64,000 nt of DNA from Rhizophagus irregularis (taxonomy: Eukaryota), in NCBI RefSeq assembly GCF_026210795.1, contig NC_089433.1, forward strand, positions 5,580,001 to 5,644,000. The letters run 5' to 3'. Positions within the stretch are counted from its first letter, which is position 1, and every line of letters begins with the position of its first letter. The notes beneath the pieces are model-generated. The model was not told where the DNA came from. It ran no database searches and was given only the letters and a program-made list of their open reading frames with translations. Positions 14,714 through 63,399 of this stretch are shown here, in pieces. The translations under genes and the position numbers were made by a program.

Positions 14714-14859
14714 TAGAGGTAGACTCTGAATCCGGTCAATCCGGATATCTGGTGATCCATCCGAAAATTAACCAGATTCAGATTGATCCGGATGATTCAT
14801 CGGATTGACCGGATGGATCATCAGATATCCAGTGATTTTTTTTTTTTTTTTAACAGTTT

Positions 14860-16735: not shown

Positions 16736-16972
16736 TAAATTTTACAAGGTCAATTAGAAAAAGGAAAAGATCAGTTTTGTAAAACAATCTTAAATAAAGA
16801 TAATCTATTTAAGTTTTTATTTTATCTAACTTTATTTGTTATTGATAATCAAAAAGTATTTGTAATTCAAATTACATGTAAAATTTTTTATTTTTTTTCT
16901 CACACTTTCTTCTTTTTCTTGTAAAAGAATTTTAATTTTTTACAATAATTTTTTATATATTTTCTTATAAAT

Positions 16973-19014: not shown

Positions 19015-19099
19015 TTATTTATAGTTTAAATTAATCAGTTATATAATTTATTATAATAAATATACTATTATTTTATTAAAATTATAAAACTTATTGTAG

Positions 19100-20790
19100 A
19101 ATCCTAAAACTAATAATTTTAAAGATTCCCATTCCTTAAAAAAGAAGCAAAGAGTTCCCAAATAAAGAAAAATAAAATAAAAATTCTTCTTTTCCATCTT
19201 ACAATTTAAAATCCAAACTAAAATTCAGGTCCAGGAAAGCATCTAAAGAAAAAAGAAAAAGAATGTTAATAACACCCCCAATGACAAAAATAAACAAAAA
19301 CATCCTTCTCCTAACTTACCTTCATAGCCCAAGCCAAAATCCAAGTCTCCTCTAAGATAAAAAAAAAGGAATGTTTATGACATTCATAATGACAAAAAAC
19401 AACAAAAGTCCCTCTTAAGTTAAGATCTAAGTCCGGGAAGACGTCTCCTAAAGAAAGAAGAAGGAACGTTAATGACGTTTCCAATGACTAAAAAAAAATG
19501 AAACCCTTACTCCTAACTTACAATTACAGCCCAAAGCCAAAAACCAGGCGTTCCCTAAAGAAAAAAAGAAGAAGGAACGTTAACGACGTTCCTAATGGCA
19601 AAAACAAATAAAAACCCCACTTACAAAGGTCCAGGCAGGCATCCCCTAAAGAAATGGAGTAAAAGGAACGTTAGTGACATTCCCAAGACGGAAAAACAAA
19701 GAAATTTACACTTGTAGTTAACGCATTATACATTGCCTCCATTTGTTTGATCTTATTCTCTGAGATCTAGCTAGTTTCTGTCTTTAGGTATTGACTGATT
19801 AGAGGAGAGTAGTTGTGACCATACGTATACTGTTGGGTTTTTTATATGATTTTGTGACAGGATCAGAAATTTGTTGTGCGATATTGTTGTGGTTATTGAT
19901 CCAAACACACATCAACCTCAACCAGTTCAACAAACGTTCACATCTAATAATGATACAAATAACAATAATCATCATGTAAGAACACGTGGAGAACCTTTAT
20001 AGCCCAAGCTGAAATCCAGGTTCAGGCAGACGTCCCCTAAAGAAATTGAGTAAAAGGAACGTTAGTGATGTTCTAAAGACAAAAAAAAACAAAAAACCCC
20101 CACCCATAACTTACCTTCATAGCCCAAGCCGAAATCCAGGGTCCAGGCGGGCGTCCCCTAAAGAAATGGAGTAATAGGAAGTTAGTGACGTTCCAAAGAC
20201 AAAAAAAAAACCCCCCACTCATAATTTACCTTTATAGTCAAGCCGAAATCCAGGTCCAAATACGCGTCCCCTAAAGAAATGGAGTAAAAGGAACGTTAGT
20301 GACGTTCCCAAGACAAAAAAAAACACAAAAAAACCTACCCATAACTCACTTTCATAGCCAAAGCTGAAATCCAGGTCCAAACATTAAACTAACTCGTTTT
20401 ACTATACTTTGTTTACTTTCCGTCATGGCTGGTTGGGGAGTTGTTACTTTCGAAGTTTCCATATATTTATTAATACTTTAACCGTCAGTAAGACTGCCTA
20501 ATCTCATTTGTGGGATATATATATATATATATATATATAAACACACGTCTTCTAAAGAAATGGAGTAAAAGGACAACGCTGCGACGTTCCCAAAACAAAA
20601 AACAAAGAAATTTATATTTACATTTATAATCCAAGCCGAAATCCAGGTCCAAACACGCGTCCCCTAAAGAAATGGAGTAAAAGGAATGTTAGTGACATTC
20701 CCAAGATGAAAAACAGAGAAAATTACACTTACCTTTTGAAATCCAAGTCGTCCAAGTTTAATTCCGAAGTCCAAGTTATAAGTTCAAACC
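19100..20790 (-). repeat. Micro-exon/intron-like array B-right, inverted copy of B-left
   Basis: Reverse complement of B-left units, with mirrored (TA)n at 15509-15533 and 20515-20539 and mirrored unique inserts. Confidence 0.75.
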
Positions 20791-21040
20791 CGTCCTTAAA
20801 GAAAAAAGTTTTTTTTTTTTTAAAAAAAAAAGCATAATATTAAAAAAAAATAGACCAGATTGGACCAGATTATCTGATCAATCCGGTCAATCCGGTCATC
20901 TATGTAACATCTGATCAATCCGATGTTATCCAATGGATCCATCCAGATTATTCACAATCCGTTCATTCCTAATCTGGATGATCCGTTTTTTGATCGAATC
21001 GGATGATGGATTGAACAGATTTTACCGGAGCACACCTCTA

Positions 21041-26832: not shown

Positions 26833-29800
26833 CACTGGTCGAAATCATTTCTTTCGGCATTAATACCTTTTGTCAAAAGTTCATTATCGTCATCACGTGA
26901 TTTGTCACACATTCGGCTAATCACAAAAATCAGAAAAAGTTTGGCATAAAGATTTTTGGTCGATTTATGGTTGAGTTGTAATATAAAAAAAACCATAAAT
27001 CGACCAATACTTTTTTTTATCGATTTTTTATTAACAATGACAATCGACTTAAAACTTTTTTGACGATTTTTAACCAAATTTTTAATTAATTAATATCAAT
27101 AATATTTGACAATCAATTGTGCAATTCCGCAATTAGTCTGCAAATGTGGAACTGTAGCATTATTATAAACACATTTTACTGACAGTTTCTATCATATTTT
27201 TCAAAAAATGCATTTGAATTGGTAAAAAAATGCATTTTCGCAAATAAAGAAATCCAAATTCGGCCGGATAATTTGACAGATTATCCAATATCCATCAAAT
27301 TTTCTGGCCAAATCGCCTTTTTTTATCTTTTTTATCTTTTTAATTTAATTAATATAAAAATATTAATATTTAATATATATATTGTTTTTAAATTAATTAA
27401 TACATAAAAAAAAACACCAAAAAAAGGCATTTCGGCTGGATAATTTGACGGATTATCCAATATTTGTTGAATTATCCGGTTTATGACTGAATATTAAAAA
27501 AATCAAATCAGCCGGAACATCAATAACCGTCAAATTGACCGGCTGATCCATTTTTTTAAAAAAAATCGTTCTTTTTTAAAAATTATTAATGAAAAATGAT
27601 TTTTTTCTTTTACTTTAATGATAAGAAATAATCGTTTTCGATTAATAAGTTTAAAATTATATATTTTTTTGCAATTCCGCAATTTATCCGCAATTACGGA
27701 TTATTTGCCGCAATTACCTATTTGCAGCACCATCTTTAACGTGAGATTATCCAGATCAAGTTAAAAAAAAAGCATGTTTTTTTAATGTGGCTCCTTCACC
27801 TCTATCTATTTCTTTCTCCCTTTTTTCCTCTCTCTTATTTCGTTATTTCCCCTCCCTTATTTCGTTCTTTTCCTTTCTTTTGCCCTTATTCTTCTATTGG
27901 CGTTGATAGGAAAAAAATTTTTTTATTTGTATTTTTTTATTTTGTAGGTTTCGGCTTTTAGTTCTTGAGCTTTGGATATATGAAGTTTCGAAGTGAAAAC
28001 TTTGAAACTTTTTTTAAAAAAATTGTTGGATATATAGGTGAGTTTTGGAGTGAAAAATTTAAAACTCTAAAAAAAACTATTTTTTGTAATTTTTTCTTTC
28101 TTATATTTTGTAGGTTCTTTCGGTTATAGGGCTTTAGATATATGAGTGAGTTTCGGAGTGAAAACTTTGAAACTTTTTTTAAAAAAAATTATTAAATGTT
28201 TTTAATTTTTTTTTCTTCTATTTTGTAGGTTTCGACTTTCGGTTCTTGGGCTTTGGATATATGGGTAAGTTTCGAAGTGAAACTTCGAAACTTATTTTAA
28301 AAAAAAATTACTTTTTTAATTTTATTTTAATTTTCTTTTTCTATTTATAGGTTTCGACTTTCGGTTGGGCTTTAGATAAATAGGTGAGTTTCGAAGTGAA
28401 AGAATCGAAACTCTTTAAAGAATAATTTTTTTAATTTTTTTTTTTATTTTGTAGGTTTCGACTTTTGGTTCTTGGACTTTAGATATAAGGGTAAGTTTTG
28501 AAGTTAAAACTTCGAAACTTTCTTTTAAAAAGTATTTTTTTAATATTTTTATCTTCAATTTTGTAGATTTTAGCTTTCGATTATTGGACGTTGGATATAT
28601 GGGTAAGTTTCGAAGTAAAACTTCGAAACTTTTTTTTTAAAAAAATATTTTTTTTAATATTTTAAATTTTTTATCTTCAATTTTGTAGATTTCAGCTTTC
28701 GATTATTGGCGTTGAATATATGGGTAAGTTTCGAAGTTAAAACTTTGAAACTTTTTTTTAAAAGTAATTTTTTTTAATTGTTTCTTTTTCTATTTTGTAG
28801 ATTTCTTTCAGTTCTTGGGCGTTGGATATATAGGTGAGTTTTGAAGTGAAACTTCAAAACTTTTTTTTAAAAAAATATTTTTTTTAATATTTTAAATTTT
28901 TTATCTTCAATTTTGTAGATTTCAGCTTTTGATTATTGGGCGTTGGATATATGGGTAAGTTTTGAAGTTAAAACTTCGAAACTTTTTTTTAAAAGTAATT
29001 TTTTTTAATTGTTTCTTTTTCTATTTTGTAGATTTCTTTCAGTTCTTGGGCATTGGATATATAGGTGAGTTTCGAAGTGAAAGAATCGAAACTCTTTAAA
29101 GAATAATTTTTTTAATTTTTTTTTCTATTTTGTAGGTTTCGACTTTCAATTATTGGGCATTGGATATATGGGTAAGTTTTGAAGTGAAACTTCGAAACTT
29201 TCTTTTAAAAAAATATTTTTTTTAATATTTTAAATTTTTTATCTTCAATTTTGTAGATTTTGGCTTTCGATTATTGGGCGTTGGATATATGGATAAGTTT
29301 CGAAGTTAAAACTTTGAAACTTTTTTTTAAAAGTAATTTTTTTTAATTGTTTCTTTTTTCTATTTTGTAGATTTCTTTCGGTTCTTGGGCATTGGATATA
29401 TAGGTGAGTTTCGAAGTGAAAGAATCGAAACTCTTTAAAGAATAATTTTTTTAATTTTTTTTTCTTCTATTTTGTAGGTTTCGGCTTTTGGTTATTGGAC
29501 GTTGAATATATTATATGTAAGTTTCGATCAGAATGAAAGAATCGAAACTTTTAAAAAAAAATATTTTTTAATTGTTTCTTTATTCTATTTTGTAGATTTC
29601 GGCTTTCGGTTCTTGGGCGTTGGATATATAGGATAGGTGAGTTTTGAAGTGAAAACTTCAAAACTTTTTTTAAATAGAATTATTTTTTTTAGTTATTTTT
29701 TAATTTTTTTCTTCTATTTTGTAGGTATCGGTTTTCGGTTCTTGGGCATTAGATATACGGATGAGTTTCGGAGTGAAAACTTCGAAACTTTTTTTTTTAA

Positions 29801-30841
29801 AAAAATATTTTTTTTTTTAATTTATTTTAATTTTTTTTTTCTTTTTTGTAGGTTTTGACTTTCAGTTCTTGGGCTTTGGATATGTGGGTAAGTTTCGAAG
29901 AAACTTTGAAACTTCAAAACTTATTTTAAAAAAAAGATATTTTTTTAATTTTATTTTGATTATTTTTCTATTTTGTAGGTTTCGACTTTCGGTTGGGTTT
30001 TGGATATATAGGTAAGTTTCCACTTCGGATTTTTGGTTGGGTAAGTTTCGAAATATTTCGAAACTTAAATTTTTTTTATTAAAGAATTGGTTTACTAACC
30101 GTTTCTTTATTTTTTTTTGTAGATTTTCCTTTGGACTTCTATTGAATGGGTAGGTTTTGAATCTTCAAAACTTTGACCTTTTATTATTGTAATAATAACG
30201 GTTTACTAACCATTTCTTTATTTTTTTTTTGTAGGTTTCTCTTTCTTCATCTTTTTTGTCAGATAGAGTAAGTGATAGATAATTTTGGATGAGTGGATGA
30301 TGGTGGACGATGGTGGACGATGGATGGTGGATGATGGGTAGTAGACGATGGATGTGGAGGATGGTTGACAATGGTTGACAATGGATGGTGAATGGTAAAT
30401 GGTGAATGGTGGATGGTGGATGGTAGGTGTAAATAGACAGATACTGTAGAATGTATATATTAGATATTTAATATGATAATTTTTAATATGTAATTTTAAT
30501 AAAGCGAAATAATAAAATTTAATCAATTGATTGTTATTACAAAATTAAAAATAAGCTAAATACATAAAATTATTAACAATTAGACAAAATTAGACTTAAT
30601 TTCATCCAACATTCGGCAATTTGAAATTTGGACGAATGTCTAGTAAAAGTTGACGAATAGTTTATTTCCGATTTTTTAATGAATTTTGCCGATTTGTGAT
30701 TGCCAAGTGGCAGGCGAAGTGTGCAAATCGTCCATAATAACTTTGACGATTTTTTTGGCAATGATCAGCTGAATTTAAACCAACTTTCGTCCAACATTCA
30801 TCAATTTGAAATTTGGATGAAATGGACTATTCTGACCAGTG
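26833..30841 (+). mobile_element. Non-autonomous CACTA/CMC-like element (CACTG ends, 3-bp TSD)
   Basis: ata|cactggtcgaaat ... attctgaccagtg|ata. The paralogous kinase near 52080-52098 shows the empty site. Confidence 0.9.
27940..30240 (+). repeat. Micro-exon/intron-like tandem array A (~20 units, ~115-bp period)
   Basis: ttttgtag|GTTTCGACTTTCGGTTCTTGGGCTTTGGATATATGG|gtaagtttcgaagtgaaacttcgaaactt. CT-rich leader at 27790-27900, (tgga/tgg)n tail at 30287-30425, aataaa near 30500. Confidence 0.85.
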
Positions 30842-32316: not shown

Positions 32317-32695
32317 TAAATAACAAAGAAAATTTTGTTTAGCAGAAAAATTTATTGTATAGAATTTTTTTAATTATAAATATTATGTTTGGGGAAAAAA
32401 ACGGATTCGTTTATATTATAATTTATGTAATTGTTAGAAAACTATCACTATAAAGAAACGATTATAATATTTTGATGCTTTGATACTACCGATCAAATAT
32501 GGAAATATTTAGTTTATCACTTAGAAATAGGTGTAAATGTATCAAATTTGGTTGTAACTGCGTGTGATTTAAAACTAAAAAGTAAAGAAGTCATATTTCA
32601 ACTGACCGCAGCATTGATCTTTGCTGCGCAATGAAATAAAATATAAATATACTAATCGTGATACATTATTTTTTTTCTTTTTAGTTTAAAAGAAG

Positions 32696-33613
32696 ATGTC
32701 TTCACTTGGTGTTTGCAATATTAACAATAAATTTTGTGGTTGCCAAACTTATATGGAAAACGATAATAATCCAGGAAAATGTTTTTATTGCAATCATTTT
32801 AACGCGTTTCATACCGGGTTTTCCATTTTGTTTCGAAATTCTTCAACGCCATTTTTGGGAGCTTGCCAAAAAGAGGGAGCTTCATGTGGATGTCAAGCTT
32901 TTTTCGCTGTTCCTAATGACCGATTGAAATGCAAATATTGTGATCATTTTTCTGCACTTCATAAGATGACTTTTCCAAATAGTGTTTCTAGTTTGTCCGA
33001 ATCTATCAACAAAAAGTCTGTGGGCATTATTAGAAGGGAGGGAAATAAAATTTTAACTACAGGTCATCCCAAAAGCCAATCACTTACTCTTAACAATATA
33101 TTATTGTTTTTTAAAGATAGTTGGAAAAATAAATCAGCTCCAAGAAAAAATACTTCGACTTGGAAAAAAATGAAGAAAAGAGGTTTAATTATTGAACGAG
33201 TAACATTTAATAAGGATGATATTAAAAATTTTAATACTAAAATTGTTAGTTTATTTCAAATTGATATTGTTGCGAATAATATCATTATATTAAAAGGTAC
33301 TAAAGGTGAATTTAAATCTTCAATTTGTCAGGTAAAAATTATTTAATATTGGGTTCTAAATTAACAGTTTATTTTTTATATTTTAATTCTTATTTTGTGT
33401 TGTGTTTTAGAATAAAACATTAAAGAATTTGAGATCAAATATATCAAAAAGCAACAGAAAATTGTATCTTGGTAATTACATTTTTAGTTAGCATTTCTTT
33501 TTAATAATGTATTGATATTTATTAATCATGTTGCTTTAACAACAATTTTAGCATTGGTAGATAATTCCAATGACGAGTCTTCTGTGATGAATATCAAAAA
33601 CTTGATTAGTTGA
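32696..33613 (+). CDS. Cys/His-rich tandem zinc-module protein, paralog A (exons 32696-33331, 33411-33471, 33552-33613)
   Basis: Two C-x6-C-x-C-x12-C-x2-C-x-H-x4-H modules. Intron positions and exon 2 (NLRSNISKSNRKLYL) are shared with paralog B. Confidence 0.85.
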
Positions 33614-39985: not shown

Positions 39986-41027
39986 TCAATCAGTGTTTTC
40001 GCTTTTAATTTCAGAATATTTATCTTGATTATTATCCGCTTCTGCTTCACTAGATTTATCTGAGGTCAGAGCTAAAATTGATAAAAGTAAATTATTAAAT
40101 ATGTTATTTAAACAAAAAGCAATATTATTATAATTGTGATTACCAAGGTATAATCTTTTGTTGCTTTTTGACATATTTTCTCTAAAATTCTTTAAAGATT
40201 TTTCCTAAATCACAACATCAAATTACGAATTATAAAAATATTTAAATATATTTTAAGCTAGTAAAAATTTATATAATTACCTGACAGGTAGCAATTTTTA
40301 ATTTACTTGCAGAATCAGCGTTTAATAAAATCCAATTATCTTCATTAACGGAAGGAAAAGAACGGGTAATTAAATCATTAATAGCTTCAGAAGTATTTTC
40401 ATTAAATAATACATTTTCTATAATGAATCCATTATCTCTCATTTCAATCCAAGCTGAAGTATTTTCTCTTGGAGCTGAATTATTTTCCCAACTTCTTTGT
40501 GTAAACAATATTATGTGATTAAGATAAAGTGAAACGTTAGCAGGTCGACCTCTAGAAGCAACTATACTAGGTGAATTGTGATTCTGAAATTTTGACTGAT
40601 TTCTTTTCCTCTTTTTAGTAATCGGCATATGTCTATTTTTAATGGCTTCTTCTCTTAACCTAGAATCTCCAGAATTATTAATACTTGATGTTAATAAGTA
40701 TGATGGCAAATTACTTTCAATATTAATTGAGCCAGGAACGATACTTGGTGAGGTATTCTTGTGAAATGCAGTAAAATGATCACAATATTTGCATTTCAAT
40801 TCGTTATTAGGATTAGCTAAAAAAGCTTGACATCCACAGAAAACTCCATCTTTTTGACAAGCTCCTAATAATGGCGTTGAAGTATTGTGAAGTGCAGGAG
40901 AAAAACCGGTATGAAACGCATTATAATGATGGCAATAATAACATTTCTCTGGATTATTCTCATCTTCTTTATAAGTTTGACAACCACAATATTTATTGTT
41001 AAAATTACAAACACCAAGTAGGAACAT
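39986..41027 (-). CDS. Cys/His-rich tandem zinc-module protein, paralog B (exons 41027-40281, 40204-40144, 40071-39986)
   Basis: Same two Cys/His modules, the SAPR.NTS.W..M...G.IIE.V.FN motif and the same two introns as paralog A. Confidence 0.85.
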
Positions 41028-41854
41028 TTTTCCTTAAACAAAAGAAAAAAAGAAAGAAATTCTTTGTACAATCGTTTGTTAAAGATATATTTATACTTTT
41101 AAGTAATAAATACGCATTCAGCAGATTGCAAAACTGTTAATAATGGTGGCATGGTCCGAAATATGGATTGGCGCAGTGGAAATCTGAATTGCAAATGCAT
41201 ACTGAATTGCCTTAATTGCAAACATTCCTTGTGAAAATGGAAAAACTTGTTTATTTAAAACCATATAAATTAGCTTTCATATGTTTTAGAAAAAGATGGT
41301 ACATTTAAGACAATAATGATGAGGGCAAAAGACTTAGAAAACGTCTGATTAGTGCTTCACTTACTGAATTGACGCGTCTCTTAATCAACTACTAAAAAGC
41401 AATTATGAAGCTAATCTTCTATTGACCTCAAATTAGAAACATTTGGTGATTAGAGCTCTGAACGGGTCAGGTAGGGTCAGGTAATTGACTTAACCCGACC
41501 TGTCTCATTTTTTTCAGATCGGATTAAGTGTCAACCCAAATATAAAAATAACTTGACCTGACCCGATCCAACCTGACCTGATTTTTATTAAAAAAATTTT
41601 TTTTTTTTGACCTTGCTGTTATTATATTTTATGTTGTATTTTATTACTAAATAAAAAAACCATAGAAATCATTTATGATATATAAAATGATATCAATAAC
41701 AATGCTAATTAGTTAAATTTTATACAACTGGAAAAATTTTATTATTAATAACTGTAAATTTTAATTCCCCCCTCACACACATACTACGGCCTGTTCAGCT
41801 TTCTGAGTTATCCCAAGGCCATTTTCTAAAAATTAAAAAGAAAGAAAACGTTAA

Positions 41855-44800
41855 CACAGGTCGAACAGATGTCATTGTCGCAAAATTTGCCTGGAATTTT
41901 TCTGGCAAATTGAGAATTATCCCAGTAAATTAGGGTAAATTGTGTTACAATTTTGGGATAATGTAGGTCTTACAATTTGGCAAATTTTGTCAAAATGGCG
42001 GAATTCCTACAAATGTTCCAATTCAAATGTTGAGAAATTTTTCAGTAAATTATCATTAAATTGTGGGAAATTTTAGGCAAATCTTTAGTAATGATATGCA
42101 AACGAAGTGCAAATTGTGGTGAATTTAGTTAAATTTTTAGTAATTTTATGCAAACGTAATGTAAATTGTGGTGAATTTTAGGCAAATTTTTAGTAATGCT
42201 ATGCAAACGAAGTGCAAATTGTGGTGAATTTTGTTAAATTTTTAGTAATTTTATGTAAACGTAATGCAAATTGTGGTGAATTTAGTTAAATTTTTAGTAA
42301 TTTTATGTAAACGTAATGCAAATTGTGGTAAATTATAGTGAATTTTTAGTAATTTCATGCAAAAGTAATGCAAATTGTGGTAAATTGTAGTGTATTTTTA
42401 GTAATGTTATATAAATTGTTGAAAATTTAGGTGAATTTTTCAGCAATGTTGTGCAAACGTAATACAAATTGTGGTAAATTTTGCATTTTTTCGGTAAATG
42501 TTAGCTAAACTTTTGATAATTTAGTGAAATTTAGGATAATTTCGGACAATTGAGTGAAAATGTTTTACTGATTTTGGACAATTGAGTGTAAACGGTATAA
42601 ATGCAACATTTTCGGAGATAATTTAGTGAAATTTTGGACAATTGAGTGAAATTTAGTAATAATTTTAAACAATTTAGTGTAAACGCCATGACAATTTAAA
42701 ACACTGTTTTAATAATTTCATATAATTTATTATAATTTTATTTATTAATAAATGTACAATTATTATTATTTAACGATAATCTATGGATAATCTGCACCTC
42801 TAATTCATTCATGTATCAAATGTCCAGTGCCAAAGTAGAAGCCGGTGTAAACCTAAAAAAAAAAGAAAAAAACGAAGCGTTAATAAACATTTCGTTGAAA
42901 AAATCAAAATAAAGAAACATTTCGAAGTATATACCTTCGAACTGTTAAATTCCATATGTTCAAGGACCATTGAACCTAAAAAATAAAAAAATGAAACATT
43001 AATATACGTTTCGTTGAAAAAATAAAAAAAATAAAAAAATGAAACATTAATATACGTTTCGTTGAAAAAATCAAAATAAAGAAACATTTCGAAGTATATA
43101 CCTTCGAAATGTTAAATTCCATACGTTCAAGGACCGTTGAACCTAAAAAATAAAAAAATGAAACATTAATATACGTTTCGTTGAAAAAATCAAATTAAAG
43201 AAACATTTCGAAATATATACCTTTCGAAATGTTAAATTCCATATGTACAAAGACCGCTGAACCTAAAAAATAAAAAAAAAATGAAACGTTAATATACGTT
43301 TCGTTAAAAAAAATCAAAATAAAAAAAATATTTCGAAGTATACCTTCAAAATATTGAATTCCGGTTTGTCCAATGAGCCGCTGAACCTAAAAAAATATAA
43401 AAAAAAATGAAACATTAATATACGTTTCGTTGAAAAATAAAAAAAATATTTTGAAGTATACCTTCGAAATGTTTCCCTTTTCCCTTTCGTTTCACCCTTC
43501 CCTTTCATCTTCTCCTTCACCTTTCGTTTTCGTTCTCAACTTTCTCTTTCGTTTTCTCCTTTCCCTTAAAGAAACAAAGAAAAAAGAAAAAAATTTTAAT
43601 AAATATAAACAAAATAACGAAATTTCTCTAATTCCCTTTACCTTATTACCTTCCACCCAAAGCCTGGTTCGTGAATTCGTTCCGGCGTTCCTACAATAAA
43701 AGAAAAAAAAATAACGTTTAAAACGTTACTAAAAAAAGCACTAAACTCCCCTCTACCCTATTACCTTTCACACAAACAAAGTCCGGTTCGTAATTTCGTC
43801 CGGAGTTCCTACAAAAAGAAGAAAGAAATGTTAGAAACGTTTCCTTACAAAAAATAATTAAAAAAAAAATTTTTTTTTTTAAAGTTTTGAAGCGAAACGC
43901 TTCGAAACTTACCACATTTTACCGATTCGGAATATTGGAGCACGGACCTATAAAAAAAAAAGAAAAAGAAATGTTAAAACGTTTCTAAAAAATTAAAAAA
44001 GAAAGAACTCTTCAAACTTTTTCTCCCAAATACCTTCAAGTCCGGTTCGTAAAAATTCATCTGGCAATTCCTACAAAAAAAACAAAAAATAAAAAAAAGA
44101 AACGTTAAGAACGTTTCTAAAATGCAAAAAAAATTGAATTATCTCTCTTTCTTTCTTTAATTATCCAAAGACCTTTCGTCCGGCGTTCCTATAAAAGAAA
44201 AAAGAAACGTTAGAACGTTTCTTAGTAAAAAATAAAATAAAATCAAGTTTCGCAGCGAGACGCTGCGAAACTTACCATATTTTATCGATTTAGAATATTG
44301 GAGCACAGAACCTACAAAAAAAGAACATTAGAAAGTTCCTTTAAAAATCAAAAAAAATAAAAATAAAGTTTCGTAACGAAATATTCGTTACGAAACTTAC
44401 CATTTCGCCGTTTCGGATCCTTGGAATACCAAAACCTACAAAAAAGAATAAAGAACGTTAGTATTTAGTAACGTTCCTTTTAAAAATAAAAAAAAAGAAT
44501 CGAAGTTTCAAAACGAAACTTTGAAACCTAACCGAAATCCAAGATCGGAAGGAATCCAGAGTGTATCTACAAAAAAAGAAGAAACATTAGCTAACGTTTC
44601 TTAAAAAAATTTAATAAAATTAAGTTTCGCAACGCAACGTTGCAAAACTTACCGGTTCGTTTCGATTCCATCATCCAAACGTCTGGCGTTTCTACATAAA
44701 GAAAAAGGAAACTTAGAAACGTTTCTTTACAAAAATTAAAAAAAAAAAATTAAAAAGTTTCAAAGCGAAACGCTTCAAAACTTACCATTTTCGTTTCCTC

Positions 44801-46789
44801 GTTTCCTAAGTCAAAAATACTGAAAGACTTAAAAAAAAAATAAAGGATCATTAAAAAAAATGATCCTTATAAAAGTAAAAAAAAAAAATTTATTTTAAAG
44901 TTTCGAAGCGAAACGCTTCAAAACTTACCATAATTTCAGTTCGTTTCCCAAAGTAAAAACATCGAAAATCCTACAAAAAAGAAAGAAAGGAAACGTTAGA
45001 AACGTTTTCTTGCAACAAAGATTAAAAAAAAAAAAAAATTAAAAAAGTTTCGAAGCGTTTCGCTTCGAAACTTACCATAGTTTTTCTGAAAGACGGTTCC
45101 GGGAAAGAGAAAGGGAAAGGGGGAAGGAGTGGGGATCGAAAAGAGAAGGGAAAGGGCGGAGGGGAGAAGGGGAGAAAAGAGGGAAGGTGAAGGTGAGAGA
45201 AAGAGGGAAGGAGAAAAAAGAGGGAAGGGGAAGGTGAGAGAAAGTAGAAAGGTGAAGGTGAAAGAAAGAGGGAACGGGAAGGTGAGAGAAAGAGGAAAGG
45301 GGAAGGTGAAAGAAAGAGGGAAGGGGAAGGTGAGAGAAAGAGGGGAAGGAGAAGGGCGAAAGAAAAGAGAGGTAAAGGTGAGAAAAAAAAAATTAAGCTT
45401 TTGCTAAAAAAGCTTAATTTTTTTTTCGTTATACTGCAGCCGAAGCTGCGGTAATTATTAAGTAATATCACGTGACGCACGTGATATATAATTTTATATA
45501 AATAGGGGCTTTCCCCCGCCCCAGAAATTTTTTTTTTTTATTTTAATAATTTTAAATAGATGTATATATATGCTTATATATACATATATATATATCTATT
45601 AACTAATACTTTACGAAAAGCCCTCCTCTGTAAACAGGTAGAGGCCATAAAGTACCTATAGGGGGAGAGCCATTGCTGCTCCCTCCGCCTGTTTATAGTG
45701 ACAAAAAGAGGGAGTCTTCAGTAGTAAGGTTTAGTACTAAATTAAACATCACAACACATCGTGTTGATACATTGTTTATATTAACAATGTGATTTAATGT
45801 TAAATAATTCATTTAGAATATAAATATTATAAATTTAATAATGTTCGTAATTTACAAATAAATAAAAATAAAAATTAACAATTTTAATGTAATTAAGTGT
45901 AATGCTACGTTATCCAGTGTAATTGTAGTATTTTTTTTGTGTTTTTTAGCGCAATTCCGTGTTTTTTAGTGCAATTCCGCATTTTTTAGTGCAATTTCAC
46001 ATTTTCCAGTATAACGCAAAATTTTCTAAAAAATATAATAATTGTGGTACTTTTTAGTGTAATGCTACATTGTCTAGTGTAATTGTGGTATTTTTTAGTG
46101 CAATGCCGCATAATTTAGTATAGTGCTACATTTTTTAGTATAATTTAATGTAATGTGGAATTTTCCAAAAAATGTGATAATTGTAATGCTTTTTAGTGTA
46201 ATTTGGTGAAATGCTACATTTTCCAGTGTAATGCCATATTATTGAGCATTTTCAAAAAAAAATGTAACATTTTAATATTCTGACAAAAGTGAAACATTTG
46301 ACCAAAAAAACATAAAATTTGCTGAAAATATGCAACATTTGACAGAAAATATAGAATTTTCATAAAAAATATACCATTTGCCAGAAAATTGGAATATTTG
46401 ACAAAATTTGATTTTAATTGACAATGTTACAACAATTTTATGAAATGTTGTTACAATGATGTCACATTGGAGATAAAATGCAGCATTTTCATAAAAATGC
46501 ACCATTTGCAAGAAAATTGGAACATTTGACAGAAAAAAAGCAAAATTTGATTTTAATGACAATGTTATAACAATGTCATAACAATGTTACGAAATGTTAC
46601 ATTTGAGGTGTAATGTAGCATTTTCCCAAAATTTCATAAGATTTGCTAAATCGGACAATGTTGTAACAATGCTATTCCAAAAAATTGCTCAGCGTAATGT
46701 AGCATTTTCCACAATTTCCCACCATTTTCCAGGAAAATGGGGAATTTGCATTTTTTGAATTTTGGACAATGGTGCCCCTTCGACCTGTG
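41855..46789 (-). mobile_element. Non-autonomous CACTA/CMC-like element (CACAG ends, TAA TSD) nested in hAT 3
   Basis: taa|cacaggtcgaacagatgtcattgtc ... gacaatggtgccccttcgacctgtg|taa. Degenerate subterminal repeats at 41880-42700 and 45890-46760. Confidence 0.88.
42845..45390 (-). repeat. Micro-exon/intron-like array C (~18 units, variable exons)
   Basis: On +: cttac[34-42 nt]ctacaaaa recurs with gttag (branch point, rc ctaac). CT-rich leader on the minus strand at 45100-45390. Confidence 0.85.
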
Positions 46790-46932
46790 TAATAAATGTT
46801 CCTTAAAAAAAATTATCAAATCTCTCTTTCTAATACACATACCGTGGCCTGTTCATTATCTAAAGGCCGTTCCTAAAAAAAAATTATCAAACCCCCTTCT
46901 CTAATGCACATACTGTCATCTAAAGGCCGTTC

Positions 46933-47180
46933 CTATACTTCATCTGATAACAAATCTAATGATAGTGACGATAGCGAACTGAAAGTGATAAAGAAAAAGG
47001 GGAGATAAAGGCACGCTATCCTATCATATGAATCACGATGAAGAACACATAATATCCAACAAAGTGACGAATAACAATTCAAATTATCAAACCGCTGACA
47101 TCCCACATGAAGAATCTATAGGCAAAACTGGTCGTTTATTTGTTAGGAATTTACCTTACATTTGTACAGAATACGATTTA
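46933..47180 (+). pseudogene. MRD1: Captured fragment of an MRD1/RBM19-like RNA-binding gene (linker plus start of an RRM)
   Basis: HEESIGKTGRLFVRNLPYICTEYDL matches from memory the Mrd1/RBM19 RRM3 start (GRLFVRNLPY..TEEDL). It ends abruptly at the array repeat. Confidence 0.7.
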
Positions 47181-47885
47181 CTAAAAAAAAAAATAAAGAA
47201 AATGTTAATAACGTTCAGTTTATTAACATTTCTAAACGCAAAAATCCCCTATTACAACTTACCTAAGGTCTTCAAGGCCGTTCTATACAAATAAATAAAA
47301 GGAAACATTAAGAATGTTCAGTTTATTTACATTTCTTTAAATAATAACACAAAAATCCCTTTATTACAACTTACCCAAGCTCCAAAGCTGTTCCCTATAA
47401 AAATAAAACAAAAAAGAAACGTTAATAATGTTTATTAACATTTCTTTAAGTAAATGGTGTAAAACTTCCTCCATTACAACTTACCCAAGGTATAACTTGC
47501 CATTAAAAAAAAATTAGCAGTTAATCATACGACTGATACTGAAACTGCAGTTATTACCGAAACTGATCAGAGTCTGATTTTTTTTGGTCGGGTCAGATCA
47601 GGTACCCGACTCGACCTGAATATTTTTGTATAATTTCAAAGTGGCTTATGAGAATTTTAATAATAATAACGAAGTTTTTTTGCAAGTTGCAACTGATAAA
47701 AATAAAGATTATATATTTTTATTTAATTACTTAAAAGAGCTGTTTATTTATATAAACGGTAATGTGCTAGGTTTCAAAATTAACAATACAGTTATTTATA
47801 AAATCTGCCGGGATATGTAGTAATTACAATATTAATGCAATATGACAATTTATTAGTAAGTTTTGGCGTACTGCGTACATATATA

Positions 47886-50800
47886 TTATTCTACTCTATC
47901 ATTTTTTATCCAGTTTTTTAGACACATACATGCTTGAATAGTTTCTCGTCCTAAACTAGAACGTCTCTTTGTAATTAGGTCGGTTCCTCCAGAAAATATT
48001 CTTTCTACAGGTACACTCGTACCTAAAAAGTTCAAAAATTATATTAAATAAAATAAAAAAATTATAAGTTATAAAATCAAACAAATTCACACCTGGAATC
48101 GCTAAAAAATCTCTTGCCATATTCGCAAGATGTGGATAAGTTGCTTCATGTGTCTATAATGCAAATATAATTAGATGTCAGTATAATATTTATTGGAATT
48201 ATTAGAATTTTTTTATAACTTACTTTCCACCACTGTAGTGGATCAGTTTTAAATGCCACTGCAGGTTTTCGGAGATATTCTTCCAGCTCATCTTCATCCC
48301 TATCATTGTTATCCAATTCAAATATACAGAAAAAATCATTCCTGACAGATTCAACTAAACTATCGGTATTTTGAAAAGTATTTTTGTAATTATTGTTGTA
48401 TGTTTCTTTAATAATTTTTAAAGAAGCATCAATATATTCTTGTTCCCATTTTTGTTGGGTATAATATTTTAATTTTATTCGCGGATCAAGGACTAAAAAA
48501 TTACAGATGCATAAAATTTAAATAATTTAAATTTTATACAATATTATAAAGATAGTAAAATACAAAAATTTATAAATTACTCATTGCTATTGGATAAATG
48601 TATGAATCATTTGTTCTGGCATAATATTCCTTGAGTTTTTCGTACCCCATTCTTATTGCACTACGAACTTCCAGAATTGGAAGGTCGTCTAAAGCGGGGA
48701 CAAATCACGTGATTCGGTGTAATTTTAATTAGATTAATTTTTTTTAAAGAAAGATTAATAGAAACTTTAAAATCATAACATAAGCGTATTTTTATCTGCT
48801 TTGCAAGTTTACTTAAGGAAAAAAAGTGGATTATGAATATTGTTTTTGACTTTACATATGAATGAACGAAACTTTGCCGATCATATTCAAAAATGGATAA
48901 CGAAATTGAAAAAGTCAAATAAATCAAAAACAGCATTCAAAACCCTACTCTGCACTCTAAGTAAACTTGCAGAGCAGGCAAAATGCATTTAGGATGTGTG
49001 TTTAGAATGGTTGAATATATGGTAAAAAGTTTTATTTTATGAAAACAATTTTTTTTGAAGTCACGTGATTTGCTCCTGCTTTAGACGACCTCAGAATTGG
49101 GCAGTAATTTGTATTTTGTTCATCTAAAAGATTTTCTATATGTTCTAATAAGGCATTATACACAGGAATTGATGCCGAAAGCGTAATGAATTTTGATTGA
49201 GACATATATTCAGTAGCATCTTGGAAAATCTAAATTATAAAATTATACTTAATTTAATTGAATAAGTGATGATAAATTTAATAATTAATAAATATTACTT
49301 TAAGTACTCGGCATAATTCTTCTATAATTTTCCATTCATCCGATAAGATGGAAAAATCATTTAGCTCTCGGTCAATAGCTGCAATATTATCAAGAGGCTG
49401 TATAAATGTAATACTAGATAAATAAATTAATACATTATATCTAGTATATACTGTATTTATATATGTTTATTTAAATAGTTTTACCACTTGAAGTTCAAGA
49501 GCGCATTTTAACATTAGGTACGTTGAATTCCATCTCATCTTAACATCTAAAATAAGGTTTAATTCTTTAATATTTTGACTATTGCATTGGCAAAAAAATC
49601 TTTCACGGCGCTATGGTGAAACTCGGATTTTTACAATAAGCTTTCTTAGCTAAATAAAAATTAATAATAAATATTTTTATTTTAGAATAATATTAAAAAA
49701 TATTAGTGTTTTATTCTTACCTTAGGTATTATTTTATTTGTAAAAAGATTTGTATTATTCAAAATATCATCTAAAATTATATCTTCATCTTGTGGTTCTC
49801 CCGCTTTGATATATTTTAGTATCTCTTGAACTGCAAGGTTCATCATATGAGCGATACATCTGACATGATTTCATGGCGATGGAATTCAATGTGATTTTTG
49901 ATGCACATCTTTTCAAATTCCTTAAGAAAGGTATTGTTATTAGCGGCATTGTCCGTTGTTATTCCAAGGGTCTAAATTAAGTGTATTATAGTATTATCAT
50001 TAGTATTTTTATTTTGTCTTTATAATACATTATATATATTAATATATACTTAACCTTTGTGAATATTTTTTTCTTTTCAAGGCATTTTAAAAATGCATTT
50101 GCCAGATTTTCGCCTGAATGAGAACCCTCTAAATAAATAAAATCAAGAAGAATATCTCTAAGTTTCCAGTTAGCATCAATATAATGGCATGTTATGCCGA
50201 GAAATCCAAGAATATTAGGAGAGGTCCAAGCATCCAACGCAAAACTTATTTTTCCTGAAACGTTCTTCAATTTTAAGAGGTAAGTAAATTAATTTAATTA
50301 TATAATAATAATAAATTAAAATTTATAAATTCTTTACTAACCTGTAATAAATTTTGAATTTTTGTTTGATAATTTTTAAAAATTTTTAAAATATCATTTT
50401 TAACCGTATCTGCAGTCGGAATACGTGTTAATGGATTACAAATATTAATCAAATAACCAAACTCGGGAGATTCAACAGTGGTAAATGGCAGATCATCTGC
50501 AGTGATCCATATAGCAAGTTTTTTCCCGAAAAATCTCATTTGTAAATATCTATAAATAGGTTTAATTAATGAATAAATTATTACTTTAAAAATAAAATAA
50601 ATAAATTATACTTACTAATCGTTGATTATCTTCACGTAGAAAATTATTCATCAATTCTACTTGCTTCATAGTAGGAGGATCAATTTTGTTTGGATGTAAC
50701 TTAAGATGGCGATTTAAATTACCTGTTGAGCTCCCTTTGCCCATATTATATTTACCGCCACTGTTAAATAATATATTATATAAATTATAAAGGAATTTTT

Positions 50801-51315
50801 TAACTGTATTGAAATATAAAAATTCTTTACCTGCAATATCAGCATTTTGCCCATATTACGCCCTTTTCATCTTTAAACTTATCAAAATGATTTTACACAT
50901 TACTTCCTTTTTTATTTTCGTCCAATGTGCTTAAAACTGATTCATCAGCTTTATTTTCGTCTTGAATATTTTGTTCTTCTTCATTTCTACGCAGTTCTTC
51001 ATTTATACGCAGTTCTTCTTCATTTATATGTGGTTCTTCTTCATTTATATGTGGTTCTTCTTCATTTATATGTGGTTCTTCTTCATTTATACGTAATTCT
51101 TCTTCATTTATACATGATTCTTCTTCATTTATATGTGGTACTTCATTTATATCTTTTTCACTTAATATTTCTTCTTGAAGTAATATCTCATCTTCTTGAA
51201 ATAACACTTCATCCTCTTCTTGATCAAATAACATTTTTTCTTTACAAGAATGCTTTGATTTATGAATATTATTATTTTTAAACTTTTTATTGTTTTTACG
51301 TTTTTCTTTAAACAT
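47886..51315 (-). pseudogene. Intron-rich hAT transposase, disrupted
   Basis: BED finger (SSTGNLNRHL), SFALDAWTS, TTDNAANN, HVRCIAHMMNL, VLDPR, YPHLANMARDFLAIP|GTSVPVERIFS. More than 10 introns, stops, a nested MITE and a 21-bp repeat encoding (INEEEPH)n. Confidence 0.92.
48681..49091. mobile_element. MITE with 9-bp TSD (Mutator- or Merlin-like)
   Basis: TSD cagaattgg (48672-80, 49092-100). TIR aggtcgtctaaagc...caaatcacgtga. Removal restores the transposase frame NYCPILEVRS. Confidence 0.88.
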
Positions 51316-51790
51316 TTTATATTTTATGAAGTAAAAAAAGAAAAATTTTTTTTACAAAAAAAAGGATTTTCATAGATTTATAACAAACAATTGATAATCA
51401 ATTTACTAATTTGGTTCAATTATTCTGATCAACAGGTTTATTTATTTAATAAATATTTTACATTTAAACGTAATAATAATTTAATATATGTGACCTGAAT
51501 CTGACCCAGATAGACTCGGTTAGATTAAAAAATTTACCTGATCCGATATCAGGTTAATAATTTGTCAACCTGACCTGAAAATTTCGGGTCAACCTGACGA
51601 GTCACCTGGGTTGACCTGACCTGTTCGGAGCTCTATTGGTGATCGTGTAAAAGTGATGACCATAGTAAATTTCGCTAACTTTGTAAAGTTAGAATATTTT
51701 GTGTAACATTACATGGTATGAATATAGTTGGCGATGCTTGCAATTCTTTATGATTCATTGTCAGTTGAATTCTATTAAAATTCATTTAAA

Positions 51791-59859: not shown

Positions 59860-61259
59860 TTAAGAAATTTGAAAAAACTCTTTAAATTCAGGATCTTGCT
59901 CTAATTTTTGCATGTGTTCAATAATTAAGCTTGTATAAGCTTGTATTCCATCATCATATTTAGTTCCAAGTAGGATAACTATTCCATCCAAATTTCTTCC
60001 TCTTCTCAAGCTAAATCTTAATGGAGTTCCATAACCAAAATCTAAATCATATAATGAAGATTTAGACCAATTGGTCAAGACAAGATCTTTACCACAATAG
60101 TAATTACAATTTAATTTAATTTCACTTTTATTTGGTTGTTGCTCAATCCAATCAATTGAGGATCTTATTTTTGAGTCATTTACTTTATCAATTGCTTTTC
60201 GTATTTGAAGTGCAAGATTTGGTTGAGATCCATTTATCAACTCAGAAACAAGCATTTTTGGAACCGTATTTCTAGGAAATATCAGGAATATAAATATCAA
60301 AATTTATCAGCGATTTAAGATAAGACATATCAGTTAACTTACAAGATACAATTACCAAAATAATTTGGTGGAAAGAATGGTTTGAGTCTTTTTCTTCCAT
60401 CACAAGGAAATGCACAAATAACTTCTGCATCTAAAGGAATTCCACGTGCTCTAGTTACCAATCTCCAAAGGTGAGCTACAAGTGCATCATTAGCTGAAAC
60501 CAAATTATGTTCACCAGAATAAACATTGCATAATTTTTTTAAATTATCTCTATTAATATGAAATAATTTTGTTATCATCGGTGGCATCGGTGGCATCGCT
60601 TGAGAAGCCTCAGTCGGAAGTTTAAACAGCTTGAATTCAGGATGCTCATGAGTTGGTGGGTTACCACTAGCCTTTAGTAAAGAACGGTCATGTACAGGAG
60701 GAATGATTGGTTCTTGACGAGCCTTACGTCCCCAATTATCTAAAAAACAAAATAATGAGATACCATCTGCAATTGTATGATGCATGACCGTTCCTAAAAC
60801 AACAGATCCATCAGCTAATGTGGTATGTTGTACCATAAGTAATGGCACATCCAAAGGAAGTGATATTAATCCATGAGTTACAGGTAAATCAGGTACAAGA
60901 TGATCTGGAATTGAAGAAGGCTGCCAATTTTTTTCTTCAAGTTGTTGAATTGTAATATCTGGGCTTTCGGCTATGATAAATGGAATACCTTGATCACAAC
61001 ATGCAATGCTTAATTTACCATCAATTTCTTTTTTTAAACGACCAGCCAATGGATAATAATCAGATAAAATATCTCCCAATGAATCACGTAGTTTACTAGG
61101 ATCCATAAAATCATTTTTGTTATCAACATTCTTGTAAAAATGATGAGCAAACATGTAAACCATTGGAAGTACTAAATCATGATTAGATAGAATTATTGGT
61201 GAATGTTGTGTTGGTTGAGTTGGCCTGACATTATAAGTTTCTTTAATACTAACAGTCAT
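59860..61259 (-). CDS. BAHD/transferase-family CoA-dependent acyltransferase (exons 61259-60343, 60271-59860)
   Basis: YYPLAGRL, HxxxDG (HTIADG), YFGNC and DFGYG motifs. One GT-AG intron keeps the frame. Confidence 0.93.
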
Positions 61260-61439
61260 TTTGAACAAAAATTTGCGGTAAAAAGAAACTATAATTTAGA
61301 ATAATTTTGTGAATTTATAAAGTTTACGCAGATTTTTCCCAAGCCAAATTAGGTATCGCTATCCACTGATTTTACCCAACTTGGATTTTCCCGAAATTAT
61401 TATTATGATCGGACATTTATCAATCTATAGTATAGTGGT

Positions 61440-63399
61440 GATCCGCTTTTCTTTTCGCAACCAACTCTTATCCTTTTTTATTTCTTTTCCCCTTACTTTT
61501 CATACCGAATTAGTTAAATTTTACTTGTGTGATATATCCCGATTTCAATCTCTATTTGCGAATAAGAGGAAGAAAAGGAGTTGCGTAAAAACGTGAAGCG
61601 GGTAATGGACGTTATTGTTGAATTATTAAAGGATAGGATAGATGTTGAGAAGGAACCAGCGATGAAAAGGCAACGGGTTCAGGGTACAGTATTTCGAAAA
61701 ACAGGAGGATTAATCGTGTATACAGTCCCCGATTGATACTGATGTGATCATTTCCATTTTAATGTTAAAAATAAGCTATCCGAATTTAAGCTTTTTTTAA
61801 CTTTCACTAAAAAAAACTTTTTTTTTATCTTTTTTATTCCGAAAGTTTCTGAAGTTTCCTTTACTTCGGAAACATTTTTTTTTATCTTTTTTATTAGGGA
61901 ATCGGCTCCAAAGTGGATAGCCGAATTCCAAGGTAAGTTTCGAAAATAATCTTCGAAACCTTTAAAAAAAACGTTTCTAACTTTTTTTTATTTCTTTTTT
62001 GTAGGAATCGGCTCCAAAGTGGATGGCCAAATTCCAAGGTAAGTTTCAAAAATAATCTTCAAAACCTTTAAAAAAAAACGTTTCTAATGTTTTTTTTTAT
62101 TTTTTTTTGTAGGAATCGCTCCGATGTGGATAGCCGAATTCCAAGGTAAGTTTCGAAACTAATTTTTGAAGCTTAAAGAAAAAACGGTTTTAACGTTTTT
62201 TTATTATGATTTTGTAGAAATCGGCCCAATAAGGAAGGAATCCGGTGAGTTTTCGAAGTTGGACTTCGAAAACTTTTAATAAAAACGTATACTAACATTT
62301 TTTATAATTGTTTTTGTCGGAAACCGGCTATAACGTAGATACCGGAAGTCTACTGAAGATAAGGAAACTGGCCCATCTTGGATACCAGAATTCCAGGTAA
62401 GTTTCCGAAGTTATTTTTTCGAAAACTTTAAAAAACGTATCTTAACTTTTTTTATGACTTTTGTAGGAAATCGGCTCCTAATATACCGAATTCCGTGGTA
62501 AGTTTCGAGATTTAATTCAGAAAACTTTAAACTAACGTTTCTAACGTTTTTTTTTATTTCACTTTTGTAGGAAATCGGCTCCGGCGTGGAATCCAGAATC
62601 CAAAGTGAGTTTCAAAAATAATTTCGAAACTTTTTTTTTTAAAAAAAAAACGGTTTTAACGTTTCTTTCATTTCTTTTTTATAGGAAACTGCTTCGGCAT
62701 GGATAATCAGCAGGTAAGTGTTAGGGGGTTTTTAAATTATTTTTAAGAAACGTTCTAACCATGATCACGTTATGTTGTAGTACAAATTAAGAAAAGTTCG
62801 AGCGAACTTTTCTTAACCATGATCACGTTAAGTTTCTTTCTTTAATTTTATAGGTTTCGGCTTCTTTAGGCGTGAGTAATCAGTAGATGAATGTTTATAG
62901 GGAAGTTTCGAAATTATCTATAAGAGACATTCTAACATTTCTTTCTTTAATTTTGTAGGTTTCGGCTTTTATGGGTGGATATGAGGTGGATCGGTGCAAA
63001 AAAAACTGCATAGGGATTTTTGGTGGATTTTGGCAGGGTTTTTTGTAGATTTTTAATAGGTTTTTTTTGGAGGGTTTTGGATGAGTTTTTTGGTAGGTTT
63101 TTGGGTTTTGGTGGGTTTAATTTGCTAATTTGTATCATTTTTTACAAAATATGATTTTAATAAAAATATTTCAAAATATTTCAAAATCTGTAATATCAAT
63201 TTGCTAAATCGTAATGTTGATTTTGTTAAATCGGAATTAATTCAGAATGTTGATTTGTAATGATTTAGTTCCGAATTTATATTCCGATTTGCTGCCAATC
63301 GGAACTTTTTAAATTCGGAACTTTTAACCCAAAATCGACCCAAAATCGACCTAAAATCGGACATCCGATTTCCAGCCGATTGCACCATTTTGACCGGTG
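61440..63399 (+). mobile_element. Probable third CACTA/CMC-like element; right TIR only
   Basis: Ends attttgaccggtg (rc caccggtcaaaat, compare cactggtcgaaat) after tcgga/aatcg subterminal repeats. Left TIR not found. Confidence 0.55.
61890..62990 (+). repeat. Micro-exon/intron-like array D (~10 units)
   Basis: ttttgtag|GAATCGGCTCCAAAGTGGATGGCCAAATTCCAAG|gtaagttt..., with introns of the type gtaagtttcgaaaataatcttcgaaac..aaaacgtttctaac. Exons 27-35 nt. Confidence 0.85.

What the first reader, a model, noticed from the sequence alone, without database searches (positions are those of the whole stretch)
46933..47180. Antisense MRD1/RBM19-like host fragment inserted exactly at a splice acceptor of array E
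Seen: on the minus strand the unit reads tttttttag|[~248 nt ending ..gtatag]|GAACGGCCTTTAGATG. The foreign piece sits between the acceptor AG and the normal exon start. On + it encodes an acidic linker plus GRLFVRNLPYICTEYDL. Knowledge: Mrd1/RBM19 is a conserved ribosome-biogenesis factor, and Pack-type DNA elements capture gene fragments. Inference: the spliced array RNA would carry antisense sequence to a host gene, resembling spacer acquisition.
Basis: partly seen in the sequence, partly recalled or inferred. Interest (0 to 1): 0.72.

Follow-up and report, generated by a model that had tools for sequence, protein, structure and literature searches.

The report
Transposon splices in antisense host-gene piece
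In a root-symbiotic fungus, a cut-and-paste transposon carries a 248-base piece of the housekeeping gene MRD1, inserted backwards right behind one of its own splice signals, and public RNA-type contigs show the piece spliced into a likely non-coding RNA; it is likely an old, one-off repair accident that is now decaying, not a CRISPR-like memory.

Summary
Observation confirmed and extended; the spacer reading is not supported. The piece (47180-46933, minus strand) matches one exon of Rhizophagus irregularis MRD1 over 247 nt with 30 substitutions and 8 gap letters. It lies directly behind the AG of intron 3 in a mini-exon array inside a complete 10.2-kb hAT element (8-bp target duplication). One contig of run X19 joins the array exons to the insert at that AG, and another splices the end of this exon to the next exon 5 kb away; so an antisense MRD1 exon is made. 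Against a spacer system: the same single insert stands in 7 of 7 runs laid, no empty site was listed, the piece is frameshifted and decays as neutral DNA would, and its longest listed perfect run to MRD1 is 20 nt. Junctions show a 2-3-nt duplication with 1-nt microhomology, as in Pack-type capture. Two more foreign pieces sit in other arrays of the window, one sense and inside an exon, one 2 nt into a donor: a splice-site bias is possible but unproven. The scan noted gene-capturing hATs on other DNA before, none at a splice site among the notes shown.

The parts
41451..51635 (-). complete hAT-type element, 10,185 bp; termini are inverted repeats beginning TAGAGCTC
   Evidence: ends align, 0 of 200 shuffles reach the score
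41443..41450 (.). 8-bp target-site duplication TTGGTGAT (second copy 51636-51643)
47891..51315 (-). broken, intron-containing hAT transposase gene (bounds read by eye); interrupted by a ~0.41-kb element at about 49092-48681
   Evidence: Dimer_Tnp_hAT E 0.008, below Pfam cut-off, on a partial frame; introns 48153-48224 and 48020-48091 spliced in X18/X20 contigs
47564..47627 (-). weak inner copy of the element's right end, just upstream of the array
   Evidence: 2 of 200 shuffles reach the score; weak
47395..47484 (-). array intron 1 (90 nt, GT..AG)
   Evidence: removed in X19 record 20
47375..47394 (-). mini-exon U1 (20 nt)
   Evidence: present in X19 record 20 with 1 mismatch at 47389
47283..47374 (-). 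array intron 2 (92 nt); in X19 spliced to an AG 13 nt further on (47270)
   Evidence: the AG at 47284-47283 is changed in X12 and X17
47263..47282 (-). mini-exon U2 (20 nt; last 7 nt seen in X19)
47181..47262 (-). array intron 3 (82 nt); its AG has 17 T in the 20 nt before it and is the acceptor used
46933..47180 (-). captured MRD1 exon piece, antisense to the array RNA (sense on +), 248 nt including the duplicated AG; host match 46935-47181
46843..46932 (-). original array exon sequence, now the tail of a 338-nt exon; donor GTATGT at 46842
   Evidence: X19 record 17
41855..46789 (.). nested 4.9-kb element (CACAGG..CCTGTG ends, TTA duplicated) inside array intron 4, carrying its own mini-exon array
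41785..41825 (-). next array exon, joined to 46843 in RNA
   Evidence: loose end of X19 record 17 equals window 41796-41825

Best explanation
A 248-nt piece of one MRD1 exon sits in reverse behind the third splice acceptor of a mini-exon array inside a hAT transposon and is spliced into the array's RNA; it was likely copied in once, long ago, by template switching during repair or replication of the transposon DNA, and it is likely a neutral passenger. Steps. (1) Shown: complete hAT with a GT-AG mini-exon array behind the transposase gene. (2) Shown: the piece matches genomic MRD1 within a single exon, starting 4 nt after that exon's acceptor. (3) Inferred: a break or stalled fork at the T-run/AG was filled from MRD1 using 1-nt microhomology, and synthesis returned 2-3 nt upstream, duplicating AG or TAG. 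(4) Shown in contigs, strand inferred from GT-AG: the upstream AG keeps its T-run and is used, so the piece became the front of a 338-nt exon; the duplicated AG has no pyrimidine tract. (5) Shown: frameshift and substitutions since; inferred: no selection to keep the match. (6) Inferred from two variants per run: the loaded element was copied again in some strains. Any silencing of MRD1 would be a weak side effect and is untested.
For: Host match 46935-47181 with normal MRD1 flanks in X10, X12, X14, X17, X20. Genomic flank is an intron end, mRNA flank is the upstream exon, so the piece is inside one exon. Junction: G shared at 47181, AG/TAG doubled; Tan et al. report microhomology of median 2 bp at 67.6% of Pack-TIRs (PMC8277862, passages). 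Splicing: X19 record 20 fits the predicted 27 joined letters with 1 mismatch; X19 record 17 joins 46843 to 41825; X18 record 9 stops at 47184 with 5 letters unlaid. T count before AG 17/20 against 8/20. Decay: 11 non-synonymous and 6 synonymous differences in the gap-free listed part, pN 0.094, pS 0.20, the 0.5 ratio expected if the piece is neutral and MRD1 changes only silently. Longest ATG frame in the spliced RNA 27 codons. A second capture in arrays A/B is sense, mid-exon, with TGTTT repeated on both sides.
Against: No empty site was listed in 7 of 7 runs, so the pre-insertion state is inferred from neighbouring units. An exact hit on an acceptor has about 1% prior chance, and a second insert sits 2 nt into a donor (2 of 3 within 2 nt, P about 0.02; 2 of 5 with two intronic element-like inserts, P about 0.07, after the fact). 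The upstream splice joint rests on one contig at depth 3.5 with 30 letters on the short side, one under the tool's 31; unspliced contigs also exist (X19 record 19, X20 record 24, X18 record 11). The pN/pS count rests on 17 changes. In X18 the exon contig has depth 29.7 against about 3 for its neighbours, which could mean a real transcript with a role (contig depth is a poor measure).
Confidence: 0.72

Rival explanations
1. Splice-junction-biased capture: mini-exon arrays of these transposons take up host pieces preferentially at splice sites (breaks or R-loops at the T-run/AG, or survival only of inserts that leave introns intact), and turn them into exons of chimeric RNAs. Mechanism is still DNA repair, but the position is not chance.
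For: MRD1 piece at 0 nt from an acceptor; A/B insert 2 at +2 of a donor; a contig in X10 and X14 leaves the array at the donor 46841/46842. A public gene model of a sister A/B array uses both A/B inserts as exons (P0134).
Against: Three host-like inserts only; one is 12 nt inside an exon; origin of insert 2 not found; test made after looking.
Confidence: 0.15
2. RNA-level capture: an antisense MRD1 RNA piece was joined to the array RNA by faulty or reverse splicing and written back as cDNA.
For: On the RNA strand the host-matching piece begins with GTAAAT, a donor-like word, and the site reads AG|G. The piece lies within one exon, so RNA origin is not excluded.
Against: The closing AG is not host sequence (match ends at 46935), so the piece is not an intron of an antisense transcript; flanking array introns are all kept; ends miss the host exon ends (4 nt at one side, over 30 nt at the other).
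Confidence: 0.05
3. Functional antisense or spacer-like system: the piece is kept to make small RNAs against MRD1, or to make the host soften silencing of the element (as for TART-nxf2 or maize donor genes).
For: Antisense orientation, spliced in; the fungus makes Argonaute-loaded small RNAs, 49% of loci from transposons (PMC8647823, passages); captured pieces of about 90% identity still trigger piRNAs in Drosophila (PMC13534243, passages).
Against: One insert, fixed in 7 of 7 runs; identity 85-88%, near the 79-82% at which that paper saw almost no targeting; longest perfect run 20 nt in the listed part; neutral pattern; MRD1 is a ribosome-assembly gene (recalled), not a silencing gene; MRD1 contig depth in X20 is 252 against 5 for the element (poor measure).
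Confidence: 0.07
4. Assembly artefact.
For: None.
Against: The junction at 46932/46933 is bridged by 31 or more letters on both sides in 7 of 7 runs; X20 record 24 spans both junctions; the piece differs from MRD1 at 38 places.
Confidence: 0.01

Closest known systems
Pack-TIRs of animals, gap-filling and FoSTeST models (Tan et al. 2021, PMC8277862; passages seen)
   Same: Host piece inside a TIR element, short microhomology, low copy number, often transcribed as chimera.
   Different: Fungal host; piece lands at an acceptor of the element's own mini-exon array and is exonised in antisense; distance to the donor gene untested.
hAT transduplication of histone H3 in Dothideomycetes (Dhillon et al. 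2019, PMC6710886; abstract and section list seen)
   Same: Fungal hAT carrying part of a housekeeping gene.
   Different: There hundreds of copies hit by RIP; here a 248-nt antisense piece, few copies, spliced into RNA.
Pack-TYPE elements of plants incl. Pack-hAT (Gisby and Catoni 2022, PMC8903248; passages seen)
   Same: Coding DNA between TIRs; capture between nearby element ends may also explain the weak inner end at 47564-47627.
   Different: Defined as lacking transposase matches; this element keeps a broken transposase gene.
TART-nxf2 and piwi/aub capture by Drosophila telomeric elements (PMC13534243; passages seen); maize donor-gene cross-talk (10.1101/777037; abstract seen)
   Same: Captured pieces of similar size (140-235 bp) and identity (76-95%) that can give antisense small RNAs.
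   Different: Retroelements capturing silencing genes repeatedly, with small RNAs shown; here one housekeeping piece and no small-RNA data.

Membership tests
hAT DNA transposon | short terminal inverted repeats | tested here: met
hAT DNA transposon | 8-bp target-site duplication | tested here: met
   TTGGTGAT on both sides
hAT DNA transposon | hAT transposase | tested here: inconclusive
   Dimer_Tnp_hAT E 0.008, 16.3 bits against cut-off 21.4, on one partial frame; exons were not joined
Pack-TIR (Tan et al. 2021) | non-TE sequence with a parental host copy inside a TIR element | tested here: met
Pack-TIR (Tan et al. 2021) | microhomology at a breakpoint | tested here: met
   1 nt (G at 47181; T at 46935 under the TAG reading); so short that chance is not excluded
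Pack-TIR (Tan et al. 2021) | empty element at the same locus in relatives (gap-filling model) | tested here: inconclusive
   no 46932-47181 joint listed in 7 runs; short contigs, cut tables
Pack-TIR (Tan et al. 2021) | donor gene on the same chromosome | not testable with these tools
   no genome held
Pack-TYPE (Gisby and Catoni 2022) | no transposase match within the element | tested here: not met
   3.4 kb of broken transposase gene; works like one, not filed as one
CRISPR-like spacer array (features recalled) | repeat unit duplicated at each uptake | tested here: not met
   only AG or TAG doubled
CRISPR-like spacer array (features recalled) | several spacers, varying between strains | tested here: not met
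   one insert, same in 7 of 7 runs
CRISPR-like spacer array (features recalled) | guide RNAs acting on the matching target | not testable with these tools
   no small-RNA reads available
TART-nxf2 type anti-silencing capture | captured gene belongs to the silencing pathway | tested here: not met
   donor is Mrd1p; its role in ribosome assembly is recalled
TART-nxf2 type anti-silencing capture | antisense small RNAs from the captured piece | not testable with these tools
   only contigs were served

The most novel reading that the evidence does not exclude
The mini-exon arrays in Rhizophagus DNA transposons are exon traps: they take up host gene pieces at their splice junctions and splice them at once into chimeric non-coding RNAs, antisense ones included, giving the fungus a heritable, transposon-borne library of RNAs that match host genes and feed its small-RNA pathway.
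Probability: 0.1. Interest if true: 0.8.

Novelty: new variant of a known kind. Interest (0 to 1): 0.42.

Why it matters
Gene capture by hAT elements is known, also in fungi. What this case adds is a captured piece that is wired into a transposon's own splice array and appears in spliced antisense RNA against a conserved housekeeping gene, in a fungus with working small-RNA silencing. That makes it a ready test of whether transposon RNAs cross-silence host genes in mycorrhizal fungi. If captures do cluster at splice junctions across the genome, the arrays would be an undescribed route to chimeric RNAs; on present evidence this one insert is an old passenger.

Tried and rejected
No whole genome was held, so sister copies could not be listed. 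Pattern scans for empty array units gave 2 loci in metagenome contigs and 5 in viral contigs; none of the 7 matched the window by blastn: chance hits. The run search listed no holder on record as RNA; X18-X20 are RNA by guess, supported only by spliced joints; X17 behaves as DNA. Pfam found nothing on the 60-aa piece. Rfam on 41400-51700 gave 1 match far below its gathering score. Protein comparison could not tell whether the donor was R. irregularis or an ancestor: 55 of 82 residues match R. irregularis, 52 of 82 R. clarus, 53 of 79 G. cerebriforme (16 of 17 proteins picked were aligned, P0015 lacked the motif). The search for the donor of A/B insert 2 found only a gene model of a sister array. 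P0136 is a repeat-protein chance hit. A cryptic intron inside the insert (47159-46979) and the 41-nt intron-like piece at 46913-46873 are read through in X18 and X19 contigs. The X14 loose end at 46841 has no match in the window. Binding or fold predictions were not relevant and not run.

Full report
Setting. The window is 29% G+C and comes from a Rhizophagus-type fungus: the insert's best protein hit is R. irregularis MRD1. No whole genome was held. The finding lies in a complete hAT-type element on the minus strand, 51635 to 41451, with inverted ends and the 8-bp duplication TTGGTGAT. Behind a broken transposase gene (about 51315-47891) runs an array of 20-nt exons between 82-92-nt GT-AG introns. 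A 4.9-kb element with CACAGG ends and a TTA duplication sits in the fourth intron.

The insert. The 248 nt at 47180-46933 lie between the AG of intron 3 and the usual exon start GAACGG. On + they encode 22 + 60 residues of the MRD1 linker and the start of an RRM, split by a frameshift. The 60-aa part gave 3 hits among 5 candidates, all MRD1-type, best 79%, E 1.8e-20. I laid 7 of the 24 runs listed. In 5 of 7 a host contig matches 46935-47181 with 30 substitutions and 8 gap letters and goes on as normal MRD1; X19 has a partial one, X18 only a more distant one. In DNA-type runs the host flank is an intron end, in X20 it is the upstream exon, so the piece starts 4 nt inside a host exon and holds no intron: DNA or RNA template cannot be told apart. 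The host match takes in the G of the upstream AG and ends two letters before GAACGG. So AG (or TAG) is doubled, with one letter of microhomology.

Is it spliced in? Yes, on contig evidence. X19 record 20 skips 47185-47483 with 22 other letters; these, with the shared flanks, equal exon U1 plus the last 7 nt of U2 at 26 of 27 letters, and the one mismatch (47389) is a variant also seen in X12 and X17. X19 record 17 covers the whole insert to 46843 and continues with 30 of 30 letters of the exon at 41825, cutting at a GT and an AG. X18 record 9 ends at 47184 with 5 letters unlaid, where spliced and unspliced forms part. Limits: the upstream joint is one contig, depth 3.5, 30 letters on the short side; unspliced contigs occur in X18, X19 and X20; the runs are RNA by guess; strand is inferred from GT-AG. 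The choice of acceptor makes sense: 17 T in the 20 nt before the upstream AG, 8 before the doubled one. The joined RNA has no ATG frame over 27 codons.

Age and function. The lower junction is bridged in 7 of 7 runs and no empty-site joint was listed. Copies in other runs differ from the window at 0-7 letters per 300-450, against 38 places between insert and host, so capture came before the copies diverged. X10, X12 and X14 each hold two variants of the insert; in X12 each has about the depth of MRD1, which suggests two loci, though depth is no copy number. In the gap-free listed part there are 11 non-synonymous and 6 synonymous differences, pN 0.094 and pS 0.20: the ratio expected for a neutral piece beside a gene that changes silently. 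The longest perfect run to MRD1 among listed differences is 20 nt (5 of the 30 substitutions, near the ends, were not listed).

Other inserts. I parsed seven array regions of the window. Arrays A (+) and B (-) share two foreign pieces. Insert 1 lies 12 nt inside an exon with TGTTT on both sides; it shares a run of residues with the unnamed protein P0135, which then continues as a different protein: likely a sense capture of a gene start. Insert 2 begins 2 nt into a donor; its donor gene was not found, but a public R. irregularis model, P0134, strings both inserts and array exons together. Two element-like inserts sit in introns (nested element, array G). So 2 of 3 host-like inserts, or 2 of 5 inserts, lie within 2 nt of a splice site: P about 0.02 and 0.07, after the fact. 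A contig in X10 and X14 also leaves the array at the donor 46842. This is a lead, not a result.

Mechanism. Most likely (0.72) one template-switch or gap-filling event at the T-run/AG, then exonisation because the acceptor stayed whole, then decay. A junction bias of such captures is the main rival (0.15); RNA-level capture (0.05) fails because the closing AG is not host DNA; a working antisense system (0.07) has orientation and splicing for it but fixation, drift and gene choice against it.

Known kinds. Pack-TIRs (PMC8277862, passages), Pack-hAT (PMC8903248, passages) and fungal hAT capture of histone H3 (PMC6710886, abstract) cover the capture; cross-talk small RNAs are described for maize (10.1101/777037, abstract) and Drosophila (PMC13534243, passages). 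For R. irregularis I saw passages of PMC8647823 (Pack-MULE-like link to gene expansion; the words 'antisense' and 'intron' do not occur in its main text) and of 10.1101/2022.10.19.511543; neither set of passages describes these arrays or this capture. Eight paper searches (listings only, apart from the papers named) showed no report of capture at a transposon's splice sites; the library lacks most subscription journals. Earlier notes of this scan had nothing on this DNA but several gene-capturing hATs elsewhere.

Verdict. Real, expressed by contig evidence, and a new variant of Pack-type capture; not a spacer system on what could be tested. Interest 0.42.

Noticed in passing
window 14800-16760 (+), 19100-20800 (-), 28000-30300 (+), 42840-45083 (-), 61850-62960 (+): Five more arrays of 20-45-nt exons between ~80-nt GT-AG introns, several inside or beside DNA transposons. 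The arrays themselves look like the larger unexplained feature; array E is shown spliced.
   Followed up: partly
window 15510-15666 (+) and about 20380-20538 (-): Insert 1 of arrays A/B: (AT)n plus a likely captured gene start in sense, matching unnamed protein P0135; TGTTT repeated on both sides.
   Followed up: partly
window 15824-16030 (+) and about 19715-19993 (-): Insert 2 of arrays A/B starts 2 nt into a donor and supplies a new acceptor and exons in public gene model P0134; donor gene unknown; may be two pieces.
   Followed up: partly
window 14720-21000: Arrays A and B are sister copies reading inward from both sides of a second hAT transposase remnant (17309-19014, +); a matching right end for the TAGACTCT terminus at 14720 was not found.
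   Followed up: partly
window 46841-46842; runs X10 (record 2), X14 (record 18): Another locus shares intron 4 from 46841 down but has unrelated DNA upstream: a second breakpoint at a donor site.
   Followed up: partly
window about 48681-49092: ~0.41-kb element with AGGTCGTCTAAAGC-type inverted ends and CCAATTCT repeated on both sides, inside the transposase gene.
   Followed up: no
window 62753-62830: Short insert with an 18-nt duplication in an intron of array G.
   Followed up: no
window 47475 and 47391; runs X12, X10: Loose ends show sister arrays with other exon variants of the same unit, one with an extra unit.
   Followed up: no
window 32690-33346 (+) and 40269-41033 (-): Two paralogous frames with repeated Cys/His motifs; the second had no Pfam hit.
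   Followed up: no
window 59860-61295 (-): Transferase-family (PF02458) gene, E 3e-55; ordinary host gene.
   Followed up: no
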